Notes: a model not told the origin generated them from the sequence alone. Numbered from the stretch's first letter, positions 31,695 to 46,061 are shown. The stretch is 64,000 bases of DNA from an uncultured virus (IMG/VR IMGVR_UViG_3300029951_000448) (IMGVR_UViG_3300029951_000448), one strand, 5' to 3'. Numbers and translations are program-made.

Positions 31695-32498
31695 TCATTC
31701 CGCCACCCCGTATTTCTTTAGCTTCAGATAGAGCGTCTTGTCGGCGACGCCAAGAGACTTGGCAGTGATCCAGCGGACGCCTGAGAAATGTTTCAAGGTC
31801 GCCAGAATCACGCGCCGCTCCAGTGATTCAAGTGACTCGCCAATCTGGTATTCAAGGACTTCGGGCTCGAGCGGCAATATGCGCCCGTGGCCATAAGGGC
31901 CATCCGAGAATCCTTTTTGGACTGGGGTCGTTCCGTGATTCGCAAATTCACCATGCAGTTCGGTCGCTGCCTTGCAGTACGCGGCATGCGCCTCTTCTTC
32001 GGTATCGAAAACTCCAACTTTGATGGACTCCCCATTCGCTCTGATTGCGGCACGAAAGCGCGCGCCTTCTTTGTGAACACCCTTGTATTTGTTGCGCGTT
32101 CGATGTTTGGCCCTGTTGCGCATGTTGTCCGCATGCGTACAAATGCGGAGATTGCACACCCGGTTGTCACTTGGGTTTCCGTTGATGTGATCAACCTCGC
32201 GCGGATCGCCGGCGAACAAACCCATAATCAAGCGATGCATCGCTATGTTCTTGGGGATGCCAGGCAGTAGAGCCGTGCCACGCGCATAACCCAGGCCATT
32301 TATGCTCCATGAGTAGGGGGCAACTAGATCGAAGTTTTCGCGATCGAACAGAACGACGCGCCCGCTCCGCGTATGGATCCGCACAACGGGCTCATCTTTA
32401 CCGATAGAGCATTCGTCATCGCTGCAAGACTGACCGACAAAGTGAGTTGCCCGCACTTCGTGGTGCCCGTCGCGCGGGCCGGATTCGACTGTGCTCAT
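31695..32498 (-). CDS. HNH-AP2 endonuclease fused to a Fis-type HTH
   Basis: MHRLIMG..VDHINGNPSDNRVCNLR; AP2 YKGV..F.TEEEAHAAY..LHGEFA; C-terminal LERRVILATL..TAKSLGVADKTLYLKLKKYG. Confidence 0.85.
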   Translation of the reverse strand: MSTVESGPRDGHHEVRATHFVGQSCSDDECSIGKDEPVVRIHTRSGRVVLFDRENFDLVAPYSWSINGLGYARGTALLPGIPKNIAMHRLIMGLFAGDPREVDHINGNPSDNRVCNLRICTHADNMRNRAKHRTRNKYKGVHKEGARFRAAIRANGESIKVGVFDTEEEAHAAYCKAATELHGEFANHGTTPVQKGFSDGPYGHGRILPLEPEVLEYQIGESLESLERRVILATLKHFSGVRWITAKSLGVADKTLYLKLKKYGVAE

Positions 32499-33268: not shown

Positions 33269-33322
33269 TAAACACCATGTTTAAGAAAAAAGCAAACACC
33301 GCGTGTATCAACAAGGCGTTTA
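33269..33322. promoter_or_regulatory. OR operator region (three 15-bp imperfect palindromes)
   Basis: TAAACACCATGTTTA, CAAACACCGCGTGTA and TCAACAAGGCGTTTA between cro and cI; match the OL sites. Confidence 0.8.
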
Positions 33323-33341
33323 CTCGGGGGAGAATCGCGTC

Positions 33342-34118
33342 ATGGAAAAAGTGATGCACGAGACTGCCCGCCGGCTCTTTGAGGCGGCAAAACTGGTCCG
33401 GCCAGAAATTGATGGTCCGGCAGATTTGGCGCGCGCCCTGAATCAGAGCGAACAAACCATCAACAATTGGTCATATCGCGGCGAGAATGGCGTCTCGAGG
33501 GACGGGAGGCTGATAGCGCAGAAGGAATTGGGAATTAGCGCCATATGGATTAAGGAGGGCATCGGGCCAATGCTTGTTTCGCCAAAGCACAATTCCAATA
33601 TTCCCGATGCATCAATCACCGCACAAGAACGGGGCGTGATTGTCGATTTGCAGTCCAGGCGCAGCAGTACCCTAGAAAAACCGAATACAGAGCCTGGGCC
33701 AGACATCAAGGGAAAATACCCGTTGATCTCCTGGGTACAGGCCGGAGCCTGGGAGACGATAGTGGATAATTTTGCGCCGGGCGATGCCGAACAATGGCTA
33801 GGCGCTGCGGTAAATGTTTCTGATTCTTCGTTTTATCTCCGCGTCCGCGGCGAGAGCATGTTTGACCCGATGGATCACCGATCCTTTCGTGATGGCGAGT
33901 TGGCGCTTATCGACCCGAATGCCACCGCCGAGAACGGATCTCTCGTAGTCGTCCGCCTCGACGATGAAGCTGAGGCCACTTTCAAGCAGCTCATCATTGA
34001 GGGCGACCGCAAGTATCTGAAAGCCCTCAACCCGAACTGGCCCAACCGGATCTTCGAGGTCAACGGGAACGCTACTATCTGCGGCGTGGTGAAGGGCAAG
34101 TTCGTCGGGGGGTACTGA
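33342..34118 (+). CDS. cI: CI repressor (HTH + S24 autopeptidase)
   Basis: LARALNQSEQTINNW; PLISWVQAG cleavage site; VRGESM and ATFKQL catalytic Ser/Lys. Confidence 0.95.
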   Translation: MEKVMHETARRLFEAAKLVRPEIDGPADLARALNQSEQTINNWSYRGENGVSRDGRLIAQKELGISAIWIKEGIGPMLVSPKHNSNIPDASITAQERGVIVDLQSRRSSTLEKPNTEPGPDIKGKYPLISWVQAGAWETIVDNFAPGDAEQWLGAAVNVSDSSFYLRVRGESMFDPMDHRSFRDGELALIDPNATAENGSLVVVRLDDEAEATFKQLIIEGDRKYLKALNPNWPNRIFEVNGNATICGVVKGKFVGGY

Positions 34119-34346
34119 CGAGCACTGGAAGTGCCGGAGGCGGTGAGGGCCTTGATAGCCCGTTTCCTGCGCGGATTACTTTGTGTTAATCGCGGTGAAA
34201 AACGACGTCACTGCGCGCCGTAGCATGCAAGGCTAGCCTTTACTCCTCCCTGCTGAATGCCGTAGAATAGTTGCATATGTCGGCATCTGCTCGTCTGTTG
34301 ATTTTGGGGAGGGATGGCGCGCCTGCAACACCCACCGGAGGTAATT

Positions 34347-34526
34347 ATGACGACGAATACCAAAATCACGGAACTGTACGGCGTGCAGTTGAAGCCGCGC
34401 GTGATCATTCGCCCGAAGTCCTCTGTGGATGTCTCGACCCCGGCGGCAAAATCCGAAGTGCTTCGCTCGATCCGAAAGGTGATTTCCGCGCACCGCGACG
34501 TATTAGTGGCGTTGAAGGACCGTTGA
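34347..34526 (+). CDS. Putative antitoxin (Phd-like neutralising tail)
   Basis: GGAGG RBS; abuts doc; C-terminal HRDVLVALKDR resembles Doc-antitoxin tails. Confidence 0.65.
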   Translation: MTTNTKITELYGVQLKPRVIIRPKSSVDVSTPAAKSEVLRSIRKVISAHRDVLVALKDR

Positions 34527-34910
34527 GTGTTGGAGCTGCAATACGTCATTACGACGCACGATGAAATAATTGTAGAGCTTGGCGGTCTCGGCGGGAACGG
34601 GCCTGGCGGCTTGGGCGGTATAGAATCGGCGCTCGCGCGTGTCGATAATCACGCGCGCTACAACGGCATTGACGATGTGTTCGGGATCGCCGCGATGTAC
34701 ACGGTTGCGATCGCAAGAGGGCATATATTCAATGATGCCAACAAACGCACCGGCCTCACGTGCGCCCTCGCGTATCTGGAGCGGGAAGGAGTTGATATCC
34801 CGCGAACACCCGAACTCGAAAATGTCGTGGTGCGTGTCGCGAAAGGCGAGATCGAGCACGAACAGTTCGCCTCCTACTTGAGCGCCTTGTGGGAGCAAGG
34901 GCAAGCCTAG
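34527..34910 (+). CDS. doc: Doc-family (Fic) toxin
   Basis: IESALAR...HIFNDANKRT Doc-type motif. Confidence 0.9.
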   Translation: MLELQYVITTHDEIIVELGGLGGNGPGGLGGIESALARVDNHARYNGIDDVFGIAAMYTVAIARGHIFNDANKRTGLTCALAYLEREGVDIPRTPELENVVVRVAKGEIEHEQFASYLSALWEQGQA

Positions 34911-34931: not shown

Positions 34932-34958
34932 AAAGCCCAGCCCCGCGCTGGGCTTTTT
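34932..34958 (+). terminator. Terminator (probably bidirectional)
   Basis: AAAGCCCAGC-CCCGC-GCTGGGCTTTTT between convergent genes. Confidence 0.8.
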
Positions 34959-35155
34959 CATATCTTCGCTGTCCGGAACACTTCCGGGTAACTCAGCCTC
35001 ACCAGCCGCGCGCCGGCATCTACCAATACCCGCATTTCCCGGTCACTGAGCATCCGCTCCAGCTCGGCCAGCACATCCGCATACCTCTCGATCGGCGCCC
35101 ACTTTCCCTCGGGTTCGACCTCGGTCATCCGTAGCAATACCTCTTCTCGCGTCAT
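34958..35155 (-). CDS. Hypothetical protein
   Basis: AGGAG RBS before MTREEVLLRM. Confidence 0.6.
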   Translation of the reverse strand: MTREEVLLRMTEVEPEGKWAPIERYADVLAELERMLSDREMRVLVDAGARLVRLSYPEVFRTAKI

Positions 35156-35236
35156 GGCGGACTCCTGATGATCGCTCCAGTCTAGGACGCACGACGGCAC
35201 GCATCCATCGGCTGTTACACATTTCCTCAAAAATAT

Positions 35237-35328: not shown

Positions 35329-35583
35329 ATGGAAAACACGCAAGCGCCGAAGACCGTGATCCGCATCGGGCACCCGGCATATAGCGGCGCGAACGCTGCC
35401 AAGTACTGCTTCAGCAAGTCGGCCGCCGTTCGTGAACTTCGCAACCGCGGTGTCAAGCGTGACGTTGCTCGCGCCAAGGTCAACGGCGTGATGACGAAGT
35501 TCGGCGGCTACGCGACGCTCAGCGAAGGTCTGGGCGATGTGATCGAGGTTGGCAACTACACCGGCGACTATCAGCCGTTTTAA
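35329..35583 (+). CDS. First pL gene, basic hypothetical protein
   Basis: AGGAG RBS; highly biased codons. Confidence 0.75.
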   Translation: MENTQAPKTVIRIGHPAYSGANAAKYCFSKSAAVRELRNRGVKRDVARAKVNGVMTKFGGYATLSEGLGDVIEVGNYTGDYQPF

Positions 35584-35597
35584 CAAAGGAGAGATTG

Positions 35598-35987
35598 ATG
35601 AGCTACGTAACCCCGCCGAATAACCCGTCCGATGCAACGGCGCTCGGAATGGGTCGTATGTCGGACATTGGAGATCGCGCCGAGCCGCAACGCGATGAGT
35701 CTCAAGCGATGGCTGAGATGCCGCGCTACCGCTGCCACAAGGAAGTCTGGGCGCTGAAGATCGCGAAGCTGGAACTGGACGTGACGCTGGCTGTCGCTGA
35801 AGATCGCGAGACGACTGGCGGCGCATGGATCACGCCGGACGAGGAGGGCTACGCGAAGTTCCATGTCCCCTCGCTGTACGTTGCCAAGCACGCTCCGCAC
35901 GAAGGCGGCTATTACGTGGTCTATCCGGACGGCTACAAGTCGTACTCGCCGGCAGCTGCATTCGAAGAAGGCTACGCCCGTATCTAG
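35598..35987 (+). CDS. Conserved phage protein (GGYYVVYxDGYxSxSPxxxFExGY domain)
   Basis: AAGGAG RBS; motif MPRYRCHKEVWALKI...GGYYVVYPDGYKSYSPAAAFEEGY. Confidence 0.8.
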   Translation: MSYVTPPNNPSDATALGMGRMSDIGDRAEPQRDESQAMAEMPRYRCHKEVWALKIAKLELDVTLAVAEDRETTGGAWITPDEEGYAKFHVPSLYVAKHAPHEGGYYVVYPDGYKSYSPAAAFEEGYARI

Positions 35988-36098
35988 TTGTCCGCAGCGA
36001 GAAGCCTTCGGGTTTCTCGGTGCGAGATAGCACCGAATCACCCGCCGTCTAACGGTGGTCGCTCCGGCAAAGCCGGGTAGGCGGAACGTGGCATAACA

Positions 36099-36786
36099 AT
36101 TTGCAGTAGTACGTACGTGCATGTGGCGCACACGAACAGGCCCGCGATGGCCAGCCATTCCACGAAAGTGGCGCGGAACACAGCAACTCCTCGCGTAACA
36201 AGGAGAGCGCCCGACCTAGCCAGGGAGACAGGATCTGCCTGACTGGATCGGAAGGCGTGGGGCCGGGAATACAGACTGGCCTCACGCGCAGCAGTTTTCA
36301 TGGAATCGGAATGCGCCAGTGGTGATGGTGTACCGAAGTAAGTCCGGAGATTGCGGGCCGGGTGCCGGGTATGGGCCGGTATGAGCGAGAAGGTAATAGG
36401 CGGTGCGCTGCCAGCCAGCGATGGCCGAAGCTAGGAATGCCCCACAAGCCGGGTTACTCACCTCCGGCCCGATTCCATGAAAGCTGAACAGCAGTTGGGT
36501 GAGGTGTAGCTCAGATTCTGAATGGGGTTGCCTGACGAGGTGGCCCGTGTAGGCGAGGGGATGCAGGGGTGACGATGTGGAATGGGCCTAGCTAGTCCAG
36601 GAGCCATCAGGTAGCCCCGTAATCGCTTCGAGAGAGCGCCGTCCATGCGGACGGAGGTCGCACACTGCCACCTCTCCCAACTGCTGAACTCCTCGCCCCT
36701 GGATACGGGGCACTACGACCGGCCATCTGGCCATAGTGATAGGGGATGCCGCCCGCTAGGCGGCTTACTAAATTAGTACTGCAAAT
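36099..36786 (+). ncRNA. Large multi-domain structured RNA candidate
   Basis: Closing stem ATTTGCAGTA/TACTGCAAAT; 18-bp stem 36292-36309/36469-36486; stem 36489-36506/36669-36686; many inner hairpins; no plus-strand ORF of 60 aa or more starts before 36746. Confidence 0.7.
36501..36674 (+). ncRNA. tRNA-like scaffold with D-loop insertion (not a canonical tRNA)
   Basis: GAGGTG/CACCTC acceptor-like stem, TA, GCTC/GAGC D-stem, CCGTC/GACGG anticodon-like stem, AGGTC variable region, minimal GCA-CAC-TGC T-arm. Confidence 0.55.
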
Positions 36787-36802
36787 CTCATTGGAGAAGA
36801 CT

Positions 36803-37729
36803 ATGGGCGATTCAGAGCCAACTTACGCCGGTTACACGGCAAGCGAAATTAGCGAACTGCTGGACGCATGCGATGAGGCCGGGGAAGGACTGGATAGTCT
36901 GCTCTGCGACGGCGAAATCGCTGTCAGCATCATCCGTGATCTTCTGGCCGCGCTGCTCGCCGCCTGATCGTCAAATCACCCCTTATCCCCTCAATGCTCG
37001 CGATATCGAGCAAGGAGAAAACATGGAAACGAAATTCACGGACGGCAATTGGTTCGTCTATGTAGACGCAAATGATCATCCCGGAATCGAATCCAACGCC
37101 GGCCAGTCCATCGTCATTTGGGGCGATAAAGATTCGGAGAATGACGACGCCGGGGTTCGTGGCAGGACGCCAGAAGAGGCCTTGGCGAATGCGAACCTGC
37201 TCTCTGCTTCGCCTGACATGTTCCGAGCCCTGACGGCGCTCCGTGATGCGGTGGATCGCTACTTCGGGCCGAGCCAGGCAGGGGCCGCATGGCCGAAGTA
37301 CTTTGATGCCGAAATGCACGCAGCCTGGTCGGCGCTGAACAAGGCAAACCCGACCGTCAAAGAGGCGGAAACCGCTTAGGAGAAACACCATGAACACCCT
37401 GCACAACTGGATTGTTGTATTGGCCTGCGCTTATATGGAGTACACCGAGTACCGCGGCAAGCAGGTGTATCGGCGCACAGTTGGATATGACTGTGTCGTG
37501 TGGTGCTGAGATGGATCGAGATGAGCGCGAGAAATGGAATACACGCCCAATGACCGTGACAGTCACCGAACATTGCGAGCACTGCAAGACGCTCAAGCCG
37601 GATGTGCAGAAGCGGGAGCATGCGCAGTACTGGCCAACCGTCGCGCTGAAGATCACAAGCTGCCTGTCCTGCTTCGAAGTCGCAAAAGAAAAGGCCATAC
37701 GGGAATCCAGGGTTGAATATTCGATGTGA
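36803..37729 (+). other. Small hypothetical CDS (36803-36967, 37023-37379, 37390-37509, 37511-37729)
   Basis: GGAG-type RBSs; 37023 has the T.G.W...ANANLLSASPD phage pattern. Confidence 0.6.
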
Positions 37730-37738
37730 GAGCAGAAC

Positions 37739-38209
37739 ATGAAGCTAATACCGCTAAACAAAGGCGCGTTTGCGATGGTAGACGATTCAGACTTCGAGGA
37801 ATTGTCTAAATTCAAATGGTATCTGAACGGTCCTGGATATGCGTTTCGCTACTCGCCGCGCGTCAATGGTAAGCAGAGAACGCAGGGCATGCATCGCCAG
37901 ATCATGGGCTTGGAACATGGCGATACTCGCAAAGTCGATCATATAGATCACAACCCGCTTAATAACCAGCGATCAAATCTTCGTGTTTGCACCCAAGGGC
38001 AAAACATGTGCAATCGGGGGCCGGCAAAGAGCAATCGATCCGGGCTAAAAGGTGCTGGCTGGAGAGAAGATATGGGCAGATGGCAAGCTCAGATTCAGAT
38101 GGACGGAAAGAATAAGCATCTTGGAATGTTTGATACCGCCGAAGAGGCTCACGCAGCATATCGAAAAGCTGCGGATGAAATTCATGGTGAATTTGCTAAC
38201 TACGGATAG
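37739..38209 (+). CDS. HNH-AP2 homing endonuclease
   Basis: AMVDDSDFEEL..MHRQIMG..VDHIDHNPLNNQRSNLR..SGLKG..HLG.FDTAEEAH.AY..HGEFA. Confidence 0.92.
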   Translation: MKLIPLNKGAFAMVDDSDFEELSKFKWYLNGPGYAFRYSPRVNGKQRTQGMHRQIMGLEHGDTRKVDHIDHNPLNNQRSNLRVCTQGQNMCNRGPAKSNRSGLKGAGWREDMGRWQAQIQMDGKNKHLGMFDTAEEAHAAYRKAADEIHGEFANYG

Positions 38210-38317: not shown

Positions 38318-38512
38318 ATGAAAAAGCAACGTGGTGATGTAGCAGCCGGATTGATTGTCGGGATTGTATTCCTGATCTGTCTTGGCGCATGGCTCACGCA
38401 TATCGTTGACTGCCTTGTGCATCAGCTTTACGTCCTGCTGCTGGTCGGGGTATTTGTGTTCCCCGTTGGCATCTTTCACGGCATCGGTGTTTGGTTTGGG
38501 TTATGGGCATGA
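38318..38512 (+). CDS. Small membrane protein
   Basis: Two hydrophobic segments; AWLTH..C..FPVGIFHGIG.W. Confidence 0.7.
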   Translation: MKKQRGDVAAGLIVGIVFLICLGAWLTHIVDCLVHQLYVLLLVGVFVFPVGIFHGIGVWFGLWA

Positions 38513-38745
38513 GTACCACTCTTGCCGATCAGATCCGCTCCATCGTCGCCGAACAACTATGCATGCCTCCCGCCGAAATAGCCGACCACGACTCCCTGTC
38601 GCAGAAACACAGGATGGACAGCCTGGATCGCGTCGAGATCGGCCTGACAGTGGAGCATGTCCTGAAGGTCGAACTGGATGACGACGTGATGTTTCGCTTC
38701 GACACGATTGCCGCGCTGATTGAGGCGGTTGAGACAACGGTTTAA
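38509..38745 (+). CDS. Acyl carrier protein-like
   Basis: 78 aa, acidic: IRSIVAEQL...MDSLDRVEI...EH...ELDDD...TIAALIEAV, colinear with AcpP including the DSL phosphopantetheine Ser. Confidence 0.85.
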   Translation: MSTTLADQIRSIVAEQLCMPPAEIADHDSLSQKHRMDSLDRVEIGLTVEHVLKVELDDDVMFRFDTIAALIEAVETTV

Positions 38746-44506: not shown

Positions 44507-44548
44507 CCAACCCTCAAAGTGCGGCCGAGTCTCGCACGCGGAGAAACC

Positions 44549-45391
44549 ATGAACGATTTAACCCTTCCCCAGTCTTCGGACCTGTCGCCGCGCTCGCTAG
44601 ATGAGGCGATGCGCCTAGCCGATGTTTTGGCTAACTCAACCTTTGTCCCCAAGGATTGTCAGGGCAAACCCGGAAACATCCTTGTTGCCATCCAGTGGGG
44701 CATGGAGATCGGCCTGAAGCCGATGCAGGCCATGCAGAACATCGCCGTTATCAATGGGCGTCCGTCGATCTGGGGCGACGCAGCGCTAGCTCTGGTACTC
44801 GCATCGCCCGTTTGTGATGATGTGGTCGAGTTCTACGAAGGCACGGGAGACGACTATTGCGCCGTGTGTATCGCCAAGCGAAAGGGCAAGACCGACAAGA
44901 CAAACAAGTTTTCCATCAAGGATGCGAAGGCTGCGGGCTTGAGCGGAAAGCAGGGTCCGTGGACGCAGTACCGCGACCGCATGCTGAAGATGCGCGCCCG
45001 TGCGTTCTCGTTGCGCGACCAGTTCACGGACGTCCTGAAGGGCATCGCAATCACAGAGGAGGTGATGGACTACTCGACCATCGAGAAGGACATCACGCCC
45101 GGCAAGCAGGCGCCGGCGCAGATCGCCCAGCAAGCCGCAGCCGCCGCTCGTCCGGAGCGTACGCAACACCACGTCGACATCATTGCCAAGCTGGAAAAGA
45201 TTTCGACGGAACTGGGTTTCGAGCCGTTCAAGGAAGAATGGTCGAAGTTGCCGCGTGAAGACCGAGCGGCTATCGGACTCGGTGAGCGCGACCGGATTGC
45301 GTTGCTGGCAGGTGCCATACCCGAACCACAACAAGCGCTTGAAGGGCCTGCCGACGACGCGCAACGCCAACCGGGAGTAGACGATGAGTGA
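44549..45391 (+). CDS. recT: RecT-family single-strand annealing protein
   Basis: GKPGNILVAIQWGMEIGL.PMQA.QNIAVINGRPS.WGD..WTQY..RML..RA..LRDQF.DVL.G. Confidence 0.9.
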   Translation: MNDLTLPQSSDLSPRSLDEAMRLADVLANSTFVPKDCQGKPGNILVAIQWGMEIGLKPMQAMQNIAVINGRPSIWGDAALALVLASPVCDDVVEFYEGTGDDYCAVCIAKRKGKTDKTNKFSIKDAKAAGLSGKQGPWTQYRDRMLKMRARAFSLRDQFTDVLKGIAITEEVMDYSTIEKDITPGKQAPAQIAQQAAAAARPERTQHHVDIIAKLEKISTELGFEPFKEEWSKLPREDRAAIGLGERDRIALLAGAIPEPQQALEGPADDAQRQPGVDDE

Positions 45392-46061
45392 TGTGATTGA
45401 ACAGCGGTCGGAGGCGTGGCGCGAACTCAGGGCGGGCAAACTGACTGCCTCATGTTTCGGCGACGCTATCGACATAGCAGATGCCGAACCCGGCGCGGTC
45501 TACAAGTCCGGCCCGCGCAAGGGTCAACCCAAACTTCCCGAGTCATCAGCGGCGCGCAACACCTACATGCGCGTCGTCGCGTTCGAGCGCACCTCCGGCA
45601 TTCCGAAACATGAGATCGGCGCCAAGTCCCTGAACTGGGGCATTGATGTCGAGCCCTTCGCGCGCGAGGCGTACGAACTCGAAACGGGCAACATCGTCAC
45701 GCAAAGCACCTTTATCGTGCACCCGCAGTTCGATTTCATCGGATGCAGTCCGGACGGACTCGTCGGCACTCTTGGCGGCATCGAAATGAAGTGCCCGCAC
45801 GACGAACAGGTGCATATCAAGACGATGCTGGAGGGGATGCCGAAAGAGCACCTTCCGCAGGTTCAAGGCGGAATGCTTTGCACGGGCCGCGCATGGTGGG
45901 ACTTCGTTTCCTACGATCCCCGCCAGAAGGAAAACCTCCGACTCTACGTGCAGCGCATCGAACGTGACGAAGCGTTCATTCAAAAGCTCTTGACCGGCCT
46001 GCTGCAATTTAATGCTGAAGTCGAAGCCATGATTCGCCAGCTTGAGAAGCGCGCAGCCTAA
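45384..46061 (+). CDS. YqaJ/lambda-type exonuclease
   Basis: EQRSEAW..RAGKLTAS..WG..EP.AR..YE..GCSPDGLV..IEMKCP..QVQ..WDFVSYDP. Confidence 0.93.
   Translation: MSDVIEQRSEAWRELRAGKLTASCFGDAIDIADAEPGAVYKSGPRKGQPKLPESSAARNTYMRVVAFERTSGIPKHEIGAKSLNWGIDVEPFAREAYELETGNIVTQSTFIVHPQFDFIGCSPDGLVGTLGGIEMKCPHDEQVHIKTMLEGMPKEHLPQVQGGMLCTGRAWWDFVSYDPRQKENLRLYVQRIERDEAFIQKLLTGLLQFNAEVEAMIRQLEKRAA

What the first reader, a model, noticed from the sequence alone, without database searches (positions are those of the whole stretch)
36099..36786. ~690-nt nested structured RNA in the early-left (pL) transcript
Seen: about 810 nt (35988-36802) without a credible gene in an otherwise densely packed operon. A perfect 10-bp stem (36099-36108/36777-36786) closes a series of self-contained domains: a three-way junction CCGCG[ATGGC-GCCAT][CCAC-GAAA-GTGG]CGCGG, a 12-bp hairpin at 36255-36287, an 18-bp-closed domain at 36292-36486, a 17-bp-closed domain at 36489-36686, and three 3' hairpins. 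Many non-Watson-Crick positions read as G-U on the plus strand, which points to RNA rather than DNA structure. Known: phages carry large ncRNAs (GOLLD, ROOL), and long stems in lambdoid pL leaders are RNase III sites. Inference: either one large phage ncRNA or a polycistronic cassette of small RNAs cut out at the long stems, expressed immediately after infection or induction (anti-defence decoy, antitermination or antisense roles). This is my best candidate for an undescribed system here.
Basis: partly seen in the sequence, partly recalled or inferred. Interest (0 to 1): 0.8.

Follow-up and report, generated by a model that had tools for sequence, protein, structure and literature searches.

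The report
Modular structured RNA gene in phages
The gene-free 0.8 kb stretch encodes a large folded RNA made of a conserved core followed by exchangeable stem-clamped domains, and it belongs to a small family of temperate-phage RNAs that matches no catalogued RNA family and whose function is unknown.

Summary
Window 35988-36802 has no credible ORF, and each domain folds better than shuffles (z -2.8 to -4.3; flanking genes -0.7 to +1.9). Eight distinct phage contigs carry a homologous element, once per genome.

A ~185-nt 5' core (36114-36295) is conserved. 95% of pair cells are paired, against 33-40% in slid controls. 24 of 46 pairs show compensatory changes. G-U cells outnumber A-C cells 44 to 5, which fixes the RNA on the + strand.

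Downstream of the core lie swappable "cargo" domains. Each is clamped by a 9-23 bp stem that opens with CAGUUUU. In two relatives the cargo is tRNA-like.

There is no Rfam 15 match, including GOLLD, ROOL, introns and RNase P, and no match in GenBank phages.

Best reading: a new family of large modular phage ncRNA. It is probably cut out of the early transcript at the long stems. Its function is unknown, and it resembles GOLLD/ROOL in kind only. No expression data were available.

The parts
35988..36098 (+). 5' leader. It begins UUGUCCGCAGCG directly after the upstream stop. It holds hairpin GAGAAGCC-UUCG-GGUUUCUC (35999-36018), GAUAGCAC, hairpin CCGGC-AAA-GCCGG (36064-36076) and an AU-rich UAACAA stretch.
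   Evidence: The same start motif and a re-paired first hairpin (3 compensatory pairs) occur in L055 behind a different upstream gene. Similar leaders are seen in L075 and L080. z -3.3.
36099..36108 (+). 5' arm of the window-specific 10-bp outer stem. It contains the recurring AGUA motif.
   Evidence: Perfect complement to 36777-36786. Not conserved as a duplex in relatives.
36114..36295 (+). Conserved core D1 (~185 nt). Helices: H1 36117-36133; H2, the GNRA hairpin, 36159-36171; H3 36187-36205; H4, the long hairpin, 36211-36251; H5 36255-36289 with the conserved loop GGGAAUACAGACUG. Conserved joining strands: CCAGCCAU, GGAACAnAGC, CGGAAGGC.
   Evidence: CM R1 scores 165.8 bits here and 169-196 bits in the 7 other sequence types. 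95% of 360 cells are paired and 24 of 46 pairs are compensatory, with 0 of 500 shuffles reaching this. G-U 44 vs A-C 5. Helix coordinates.
36292..36486 (+). Cargo domain D2, closed by the 18-bp stem CAGUUUUCAUGGAAUCGG / CCGAUUCCAUGAAAGCUG.
   Evidence: L085 has a homologous domain with the same closing stem and the same first and last hairpins but a different middle. z -3.1.
36489..36686 (+). Cargo domain D3, closed by CAGCAGUUGGGUGAGGUG / CACCUCUCCCAACUGCUG.
   Evidence: z -4.3. No homologue in any relative, so there is no comparative support. ARAGORN and Rfam do not call it a tRNA.
36687..36772 (+). 3' hairpins: GCCCC-UGGAUAC-GGGGC (36695-36711), GGCC-AUCU-GGCC (36721-36732), GCCGCC-CGCUA-GGCGGC (36748-36764).
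   Evidence: Read. The first hairpin is 93% identical over 30 nt to L080. The tail as a whole gives z -1.6, which is not significant.
36773..36786 (+). Conserved 3' motif UUAGUAC (36773-36779) and the 3' arm of the outer stem (36777-36786).
   Evidence: UUAGUA(C) lies just before the Shine-Dalgarno sequence of the next gene in the window, L055, L069, L073, L077, L080 and L085. L075 has AAGUAC.
36793..36805 (+). Shine-Dalgarno GGAG (36793-36796) and the ATG (36803) of the next gene (54 aa, 36803-36967). This marks the end of the RNA module.
   Evidence: L069 and L080 share an identical 3' end through the SD up to the ATG although their downstream genes differ.

Best explanation
SHOWN. 35988-36802 is an RNA gene, not a spacer. 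It encodes a + strand, multi-domain structured ncRNA of a family not present in Rfam 15. The family occurs once per genome in at least 8 distinct temperate-phage contigs. Its parts run in a line: a short leader; a conserved ~185-nt core (D1) of five helices joined by invariant purine-rich strands; one to three exchangeable cargo domains; and 3' hairpins ending in UUAGUAC just before the next gene's ribosome-binding site. Each cargo domain is clamped by a long stem whose 5' strand begins CAGUUUU. The window carries two cargo domains (D2, D3). Two relatives carry a tRNA-like domain in that slot.

INFERRED. The RNA is made as part of the repressor-proximal early operon, whose genes lie on the same strand on both sides. 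It is then cut out of that transcript at the 14-23 bp clamps, which are RNase III-type substrates, and at the tRNA-like modules where present (RNase P). This would yield a stable core-containing RNA and separate cargo RNAs.

GUESS. The core is a docking or assembly platform acting in trans, in the manner of the large phage RNAs GOLLD and ROOL. It would present tRNA-like or other cargo to a host factor of the translation or tRNA-targeting defence machinery.
For: Not coding:
- No credible ORF.
- The upstream gene is complete.
- Gaps in the 8-sequence core alignment are 1, 2, 4, 5 and 6 nt long.

Stability: every domain except the tail beats shuffles, while flanking genes do not.

Homologues: 8 sequence types were found by pattern scans.

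Core structure:
- 46 pairs, with 95.0% of 360 cells paired against 32.6-40.4% when partners are slid.
- 24 pairs have changes on both sides.
- 0 of 500 shuffles reach any of the five measures.
- RNAalifold finds 23 of 46 compensatory pairs on an independent MAFFT alignment.

Strand: 44 G-U against 5 A-C cells.

Copy number: one R1 match in each of 9 virus records, three of them 100% complete at 65-68 kb.

Modularity:
- A relative whose downstream gene is 99.5% identical has a different cargo.
- Contigs from two peat runs bridge 36276 to 36968 with 616 other letters in between.
- The window's D2 recurs in L085.
- CAGUUUU-opened stems of 9-23 bp occur in all 8 elements (plus reading for L069 and L073).

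tRNA-like cargo:
- L073 scores 44.4 bits on Rfam tRNA, where the cut-off is 29.
- ARAGORN calls tRNA-??? with a 2-nt anticodon in L073 and a 4-nt anticodon in L077.

Context:
- An S24/HTH repressor lies 0.9-4.5 kb upstream on the same strand in 5 of 6 contigs.
- A YqaJ exonuclease lies 5.7-9.2 kb downstream in 4 of 4 contigs that are long enough.
Against: - No expression data: 24 of 24 runs holding the stretch are DNA runs.
- No promoter-like or terminator-like site of its own was found.
- There are only 8 sequence types, and several share near-identical blocks. Independent compensatory events are therefore fewer than the cell counts suggest, and alignment A8 was fitted to the model.
- D3 and most of the 3' tail have no homologue, so their structure rests on thermodynamics alone. 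The tail is not significant (z -1.6).
- The - strand of the window also folds better than its shuffles.
- The outer stem is not conserved.
- Processing by RNase III or RNase P and any trans function are inference only.
- No protein partner is conserved next to the element.
- The tRNA-like modules lack normal anticodon loops, and the L077 one is below the Rfam cut-off (17.2 bits).
Confidence: 0.68

Rival explanations
1. A cis-acting leader or processive-antitermination RNA. The folded transcript would act on the RNA polymerase or ribosome that makes it, as HK022 put RNA does (recalled), to carry early transcription through terminators or to control the next gene.
For: It lies within an early operon on the same strand as its neighbours and ends immediately before a Shine-Dalgarno sequence. 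The SD and start codon belong to the conserved module. No promoter or terminator of its own was found.
Against: The gene downstream differs in nearly every relative, which does not fit a gene-specific riboswitch or leader. There is only one copy per genome, whereas put-type sites serve both early operons (recalled). A length of 0.5-1 kb with swappable domains is far beyond known antiterminator RNAs. The SD is not sequestered in the predicted fold.
Confidence: 0.12
2. A decaying tRNA island. The cargo domains would be relics of phage tRNA genes and other small RNAs, kept apart by recombination linker sequences (CAGUUUU...AAAGCUG). Only the core, or nothing, would still be functional.
For: Two relatives carry tRNA-like domains without usable anticodons. 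The window's D3 begins GGGUGAGGUGUAGCUCAGA, which resembles a tRNA 5' end by my reading. Cargo is unique or patchy between relatives. Short conserved boundary motifs fit phage mosaic joints.
Against: D2 and D3 fold far better than shuffles (z -3.1 and -4.3) and keep perfect 17-18 bp clamps, which would be unexpected for decaying sequence. D2 retains its paired elements in L085 through one-sided and two-sided changes. The window has no tRNA by ARAGORN or by Rfam at E up to 10.
Confidence: 0.1
3. A DNA-level element: an origin, a recombination or packaging site, or a miniature inverted-repeat insertion. The inverted repeats would act as DNA.
For: There are long inverted repeats. Both strands fold better than shuffles. 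The domains behave like inserted cassettes.
Against: In the conserved core, G-U cells outnumber A-C cells 44 to 5. This asymmetry is meaningless for duplex DNA and points to the + strand transcript. Stem sequences change while pairing is kept. There are no direct-repeat iterons and no flanking duplications. No transposase, integrase or replication initiator lies next to the element.
Confidence: 0.03
4. A self-splicing intron or a broken protein gene.
For: PHROG profiles of the upstream protein's family are longer than the protein and align only to their first half. This first suggested a split gene.
Against: The 8 homologues fetched all end at the same C-terminus, and most of the 120 listed are 95-130 aa; the longer ones among those fetched are extended at the N-terminus. 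There is no group I or group II intron match in Rfam at E up to 10. In relatives the element follows unrelated genes.
Confidence: 0.02

Closest known systems
GOLLD RNA (large phage/prophage ncRNA)
   Same: It is phage-encoded, 0.5-1 kb, and elaborately folded. One part is conserved and another variable. tRNAs lie next to it or inside its variable linker (passages of 10.1101/2024.12.08.627333; PMC5737381). Its function is unknown.
   Different: No match to the Rfam model. Here the conserved part is at the 5' end and the variable part at the 3' end, whereas GOLLD has a conserved 3' region. The known hosts and habitats differ. Oligomeric cage formation is untested.
ROOL RNA
   Same: A large ornate ncRNA of phages and prophages, often near tRNA islands, with no known protein partner.
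   Different: No match to the Rfam model. ROOL is a single conserved fold of about 580 nt with multistem junctions and pseudoknots, not a core plus swappable clamped domains.
RNase III processing stems of phage early transcripts and rRNA operons (T7 early mRNA, lambda N leader, 16S/23S stems with spacer tRNAs). Recalled, not looked up.
   Same: Long double-stranded stems bracket functional RNA units inside a polycistronic transcript. tRNAs sit between units as further processing signals.
   Different: Cleavage here is only inferred. The bracketed units are not rRNAs or mRNAs but non-coding domains of unknown role. The clamps share the conserved base CAGUUUU/AAAGCUG.
P1/P7 C4 and P4 CI immunity RNAs. 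Recalled, not looked up.
   Same: Small phage RNAs encoded in the immunity region and released from a longer transcript by RNase P acting on a tRNA-like fold.
   Different: Those RNAs are under 100 nt and act as antisense repressors. No target complementarity was sought or found here, and these phages carry a protein CI-type repressor.

Membership tests
GOLLD RNA | Match to the Rfam covariance model | tested here: not met
   No family reached its gathering score in the whole window. No GOLLD match at E up to 10 in 35500-37300, nor at E up to 0.1 in 7 relatives' loci.
GOLLD RNA | Conserved 3' region with a less conserved 5' region | tested here: not met
   Here the conserved core is 5' and the variable domains are 3'.
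GOLLD RNA | Phage or prophage location with tRNAs adjacent or inside | tested here: inconclusive
   Phage location is met. tRNA-like modules occur in 2 of 8 relatives. There is none in the window.
GOLLD / ROOL RNA | Homo-oligomeric RNA-only nanocage | not testable with these tools
   Needs cryo-EM or SEC-MALS of the transcript.
ROOL RNA | Match to the Rfam covariance model | tested here: not met
tRNA (for the window's domains D2 and D3) | Cloverleaf recognised by ARAGORN or Rfam RF00005 | tested here: not met
   ARAGORN finds 0 genes in the window. There is no RF00005 match at E up to 10 in 35500-37300. The feature is met in relative L073 (44.4 bits, cut-off 29) and is weak in L077 (17.2 bits).
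Group I / group II self-splicing intron | Intron core match and a host gene split into two exons | tested here: not met
   No intron family at E up to 10. The upstream gene ends where the 8 fetched homologues end.
RNase III-delimited processing cassette | Near-perfect double-stranded stems of about two helical turns bracketing each unit | tested here: met
   18- and 17/18-bp clamps in the window. 9-23 bp clamps opened by CAGUUUU in all 8 elements.
RNase III-delimited processing cassette | Cleavage at the stems in vivo, dependent on rnc | not testable with these tools
   No RNA run holds the stretch.
put-type processive antiterminator RNA (features recalled) | A short two-hairpin RNA just downstream of each early promoter, so two copies per phage | tested here: not met
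   One core match per record in 9 of 9 records. The element is 525-1050 nt long.
Retron / DRT / IscB-TnpB guide-type ncRNA | An adjacent reverse transcriptase or RNA-guided nuclease gene | tested here: not met
   No such Pfam or PHROG domain within about 5-7 kb in the window or in 5 relatives. The HNH_3-AP2 gene at 37739-38209 is a homing-endonuclease type.

The most novel reading that the evidence does not exclude
The family is a programmable RNA platform of temperate phages. The invariant core would fold into a docking or self-assembling unit. The clamped slot behind it would display exchangeable cargo, namely tRNA mimics without anticodons and other folds. These would act as decoys or sponges for host tRNA-targeting defence nucleases or translation factors early after infection or induction. 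Cargo would be swapped between phages by recombination at the CAGUUUU/AAAGCUG clamps, much as protein anti-defence genes are swapped.
Probability: 0.15. Interest if true: 0.9.

Novelty: new variant of a known kind. Interest (0 to 1): 0.72.

Why it matters
Few large, elaborately folded bacterial and phage RNAs are known: rRNA, RNase P, group II introns, OLE, GOLLD, ROOL and raiA. Each has opened new RNA biochemistry. GOLLD and ROOL were recently shown to form RNA-only cages whose purpose is still unknown.

A further 0.5-1 kb phage RNA that again links a conserved fold to tRNA-like elements would be an independent example. It differs in having a clear core-plus-cassette build and a fixed place in the early operon of temperate phages. 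That would help answer an open question: why do phages carry giant RNAs next to tRNAs?

One member lies in a record that IMG/VR classes as a provirus (G005). Its host may therefore be culturable, which would make induction, deletion and processing experiments feasible. The natural cargo swaps also give a ready-made test of which parts matter.

Tried and rejected
Database and collection searches
- Rfam at gathering score on the whole window: 0 matches. Rfam at E up to 10 on 35500-37300: only three chance-level hits, mir-35_2, sR45 and psbNH.
- ARAGORN on the window: 0.
- blastn against 50,697 GenBank phage records: none with the window's region, none with L068's element, and one 75-nt chance-level hit at E 0.09 with L067's element.
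- Own-genome and relatives searches were not possible because the assembly is not held.
- Metagenome scan: 5 true loci of 21 stretches. Genome scan: 0 true of 7. Judged with model R1.
- Viral scans: one search gave 6 true of 16 stretches (L076 judged by reading only), one search gave 7 of 7, and one search gave 9 of 11 (L092 and L097 rejected).
- R1 found no core in 30 loci syntenic for the upstream gene family, no second copy in the window, and none in 3 cultured phages that share the portal gene.

Hypotheses dropped
- Split-gene or intron idea.
- Outer-stem conservation test: negative.
- A pseudoknot between J1/2 (CUCG) and the H3 loop (CGAG). It does not hold in L055, L075 or L085 by my reading.
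- A loop pairing AUGG/CCAU. It is invariant, so it cannot be tested.

Expression
- No RNA holder listed among the 24 runs. Contigs laid from 4 DNA runs cannot show expression.

Earlier findings
- Nothing found. One search failed on an argument.

Literature
- Four searches turned up no description of this family.
- Supplement files 1, 2 and 4 of PMC10690425 could not be read. Those files list candidate phage RNAs of 29-151 nt, so a sub-piece of the core may be listed there.

Slips
- translated the small downstream ORF one base out of frame (36804 instead of 36803). It was redone with no PHROG match.
- timed out and was repeated.
- One search had a coordinate error and was corrected.

Full report
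WHAT IS THERE

The window is a temperate-phage contig. Its own assembly is not held, and the nearest virus record, G001, shares 55% of its sampled words.

Between the stop of a 130-aa gene (35985-35987) and the ATG of a 54-aa gene (36803) lie 815 nt. No ORF there exceeds 87 aa on either strand. The upstream protein aligned only to the first half of four PHROG profiles, which raised the idea of a gene split by an intron. That idea fails. The 8 homologues fetched, of 120 listed, all end ...GYxRI as the window's protein does. Most of the 120 are 95-130 aa, and the longer ones among those fetched are extended at the N-terminus.

All are where stated:
- the perfect 10-bp pair 36099-36108/36777-36786;
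- the 18-nt arms 36292-36309/36469-36486;
- the 18-nt arms 36489-36506/36669-36686;
- the hairpin 36255-36287;
- the CCAC-GAAA-GUGG hairpin;
- the 3' hairpins.

The 688-nt stretch folds at -313.4 kcal/mol on the + strand (z -3.6, 20 shuffles) and at -291.7 on the - strand (z -6.1).

Domain by domain, with 100 dinucleotide shuffles each, the + strand z-scores are: leader -3.3, D1 -2.8, D2 -3.1, D3 -4.3, 3' tail -1.6. Three flanking genes give -0.2, -0.7 and +1.9. The structure is therefore more than composition, except for the tail.

NOT A KNOWN RNA

- Rfam 15 gives nothing at gathering score in the 64 kb.
- At E up to 10 in 35500-37300 it gives only three chance-level hits.
- ARAGORN finds no tRNA or tmRNA.
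- GenBank phages hold nothing similar.

RELATIVES

Pattern scans built from conserved blocks, filtered with a covariance model, give eight distinct sequence types:
- the window type (also IMG/VR 3300029882_000082);
- the G001 type (L055);
- L069;
- L073;
- L075;
- L077;
- L080;
- L085 (identical to L087).

They carry seven different dataset ids. Each of nine virus records searched whole has exactly one match. Three of these records are rated 100% complete at 65-68 kb; one is a provirus and one has direct terminal repeats.

Contigs of four peat DNA runs show further variants of the core. In 3 of the 4 runs, 2-4 contigs carry other letters over 36199-36245. One variant has CCC-UUCG-GGG in place of CCAC-GAAA-GUGG and a re-paired H5 stem. 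The family is therefore wider than the eight types I could fetch.

THE CONSERVED CORE

The core spans window 36114-36295, about 185 nt. It has:
- five helices: H1 36117-36133, H2 36159-36171, H3 36187-36205, H4 36211-36251, H5 36255-36289;
- invariant joining strands CCAGCCAU, GGAACAnAGC and CGGAAGGC;
- an H5 loop GGGAAUACAGACUG.

On a plain MAFFT alignment of the eight sequences, RNAalifold predicts 46 pairs, of which 23 have compensatory changes.

On the model-fitted alignment:
- 95.0% of 360 cells are standard pairs, against 32.6-40.4% when the 3' partners are slid by 1-3 columns;
- 24 of 46 pairs change on both sides;
- none of 500 shuffles reaches any of the five measures.

Two cautions apply. 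The sequences are related and share blocks, and that alignment leans towards the model.

G-U cells number 44 and A-C cells 5. Read from the other strand, pairing would fall from 95% to 84%. The RNA is therefore the + strand, the same as the flanking genes.

Gaps in the alignment are 1, 2, 4, 5 and 6 nt long, so no reading frame is kept.

WHAT IS NOT CONSERVED

The CCGCG...CGCGG three-way junction and its AUGGC/GCCAU arm exist only in the window. The seven other sequences cannot form them, and only the terminal hairpin (H2) covaries.

The 10-bp outer stem is also specific to the window:
- I tested the duplex between the 30 nt before H1 and the 38 nt before the ribosome-binding site against 300 shuffles.
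- It beats fewer than 5% of shuffles in 0 of 7 relatives.
- In the window itself, 30 of 300 shuffles do as well.
- A perfect 10-mer complement somewhere in 816 nt is expected about 0.3 times by chance (my arithmetic).
- Only the short motifs AGUA (5') and UUAGUA(C) (3') recur.

The RNA is therefore better described as domains in a row than as one nested molecule.

ARCHITECTURE AND MODULARITY

The element starts immediately after the stop codon of whatever gene lies upstream. In four types it begins (U/C)UGU(C/U)(C/U)G(U/C)AGCG followed by a hairpin. Between the window and L055 that hairpin has three compensatory pairs. The element ends at the Shine-Dalgarno sequence and ATG of whatever gene lies downstream. 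L069 and L080 share this 3' end although their downstream genes differ. Lengths run from 525 to about 1050 nt.

Behind the core come one to three domains, each closed by a long stem whose 5' strand begins CAGUUUU (CAGUUGGG in the window's D3):
- window: 18 bp and 14 or more bp;
- L055: 9 bp, followed by a further 10-bp stem beyond an internal loop (reading);
- L075: 21 bp;
- L077: 23 bp and 22 bp;
- L080: 10 bp;
- L085: 17 bp;
- L069 and L073: 17 bp and 18 bp by my reading.

The base of the clamp is conserved. The rest differs in sequence but stays complementary.

The contents are mosaic:
- The window's D2 recurs in L085 with the same clamp and the same first and last hairpins but a different middle.
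- D3 has no relative.
- L073, L075 and L080 share another module. L069, L075 and L085 share a 3' module.
- The G001 type has a downstream gene 99.5% identical to the window's but a different cargo and next gene. Contigs in two of the four laid runs bridge 36276 to 36968 with 616 other letters. Cargo is thus exchanged between close relatives.

tRNA-LIKE CARGO

In L073 the slot holds a tRNA-shaped domain. It scores 44.4 bits on Rfam RF00005 (cut-off 29), and ARAGORN calls it tRNA-??? with a 2-nt anticodon. Its acceptor stem runs straight on into the CAGUUUU clamp.

In L077 ARAGORN calls a 98-nt tRNA-??? with a 4-nt anticodon. Rfam gives only 17.2 bits.

The window's D2 and D3 are not tRNA-like by either tool.

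CONTEXT

In the window the order on the + strand is:
- CI-type S24 repressor (33303-34118);
- Phd/Doc module (34314-34910);
- two small genes;
- the RNA;
- small genes;
- HNH-AP2 endonuclease;
- acyl carrier protein;
- RecT-like gene and YqaJ exonuclease (44519-46061).

Across six contigs, an S24 or HTH repressor gene lies 0.9-4.5 kb upstream on the same strand in five. A YqaJ exonuclease lies 5.7-9.2 kb downstream in all four that reach far enough. No promoter was mapped, however. The simple scan finds a promoter-like site only before Phd/Doc and a terminator-like site behind Doc.

No protein gene is conserved next to the RNA.

The portal protein is 60% identical to that of Ralstonia phages. 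This suggests a host in the Burkholderiales. Those phages lack the core.

HOW IT MOST LIKELY WORKS

Shown: a conserved, + strand, single-copy, modular RNA gene.

Inferred: it is transcribed with the early operon. The 14-23 bp clamps are RNase III-type substrates and the tRNA-like modules are RNase P substrates. Cutting at these would release the core and the cargo from the mRNA, as happens with T7 early RNAs and rRNA operons (recalled).

Guess: the core acts in trans as a docking or assembly unit, as proposed for GOLLD and ROOL. Both are phage RNAs found near tRNA islands, GOLLD sometimes has tRNAs in its linker, and both form RNA-only cages (passages read).

Nothing here tests expression. All 24 runs holding the stretch are DNA runs.

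COMPARISON AND NOVELTY

It works like, but is not a member of, GOLLD or ROOL:
- the Rfam models do not match;
- the polarity of the conserved and variable parts is the reverse of GOLLD's.

Four full-text searches found no description of this family. A screen of IMG/VR intergenic regions reported 8,495 short candidate RNAs of 29-151 nt (PMC10690425; abstract and section 2.1 read). Three of its supplement files could not be read, so a fragment of the core might be listed there.

I rate it a new family within the known kind "large structured phage ncRNA". Its distinctive feature is a core-plus-cassette build.

Noticed in passing
window 34314-34910: A Phd-like (70 aa) plus Doc toxin (127 aa; Pfam Fic/DOC 2.5e-9, phrog_577) module sits between the CI-type repressor and the RNA operon. 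A promoter-like site (34239-34268) lies before it and a terminator-like hairpin (34939-34954) behind it. Its position recalls lambda rexAB.
   Followed up: partly
window 31695-32498 (-) and 37739-38209 (+): Two free-standing HNH_3 + AP2 endonuclease genes. The first also has a Fis-type HTH. In relative L077 an HNH endonuclease gene lies immediately upstream of the RNA.
   Followed up: no
window 38491-38745: A phage-encoded acyl carrier protein (PP-binding 3.1e-12, phrog_5934) in the early operon.
   Followed up: no
L055 1514-1867; L073 886-1089 (-); L085 and L069 second gene downstream: A small gene family (MSKKHxQRTRA ... VEYRSKYTPHxGAK...) lies zero or one genes downstream of the RNA in 4 of 8 types, by my reading. 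It has no PHROG match. It is not present next to the RNA in the window.
   Followed up: partly
window 36199-36276, in peat runs X11, X14, X19: Summed contig depth over the core is 4-10 times that of the window-specific parts. In these 3 of the 4 laid runs, 2-4 contigs with other letters cover it. Other, more abundant phage populations in the same samples therefore carry diverged cores that I could not fetch.
   Followed up: partly
window 36489-36515: D3 begins GGGUGAGGUGUAGCUCAGA, which resembles the acceptor and D-arm start of a tRNA (my reading). Neither ARAGORN nor Rfam supports a tRNA here.
   Followed up: partly
L077 180-821 (-): The gene downstream of the RNA in the provirus record encodes a 213-aa protein with about 14 tandem GGGIEA repeats.
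   Followed up: no
window 34958-35230 (-): A 90-aa ORF with good codon bias lies on the opposite strand between the Doc terminator and the first gene of the RNA-bearing run. The early promoter and operator of that run may lie here. Not examined.
   Followed up: no
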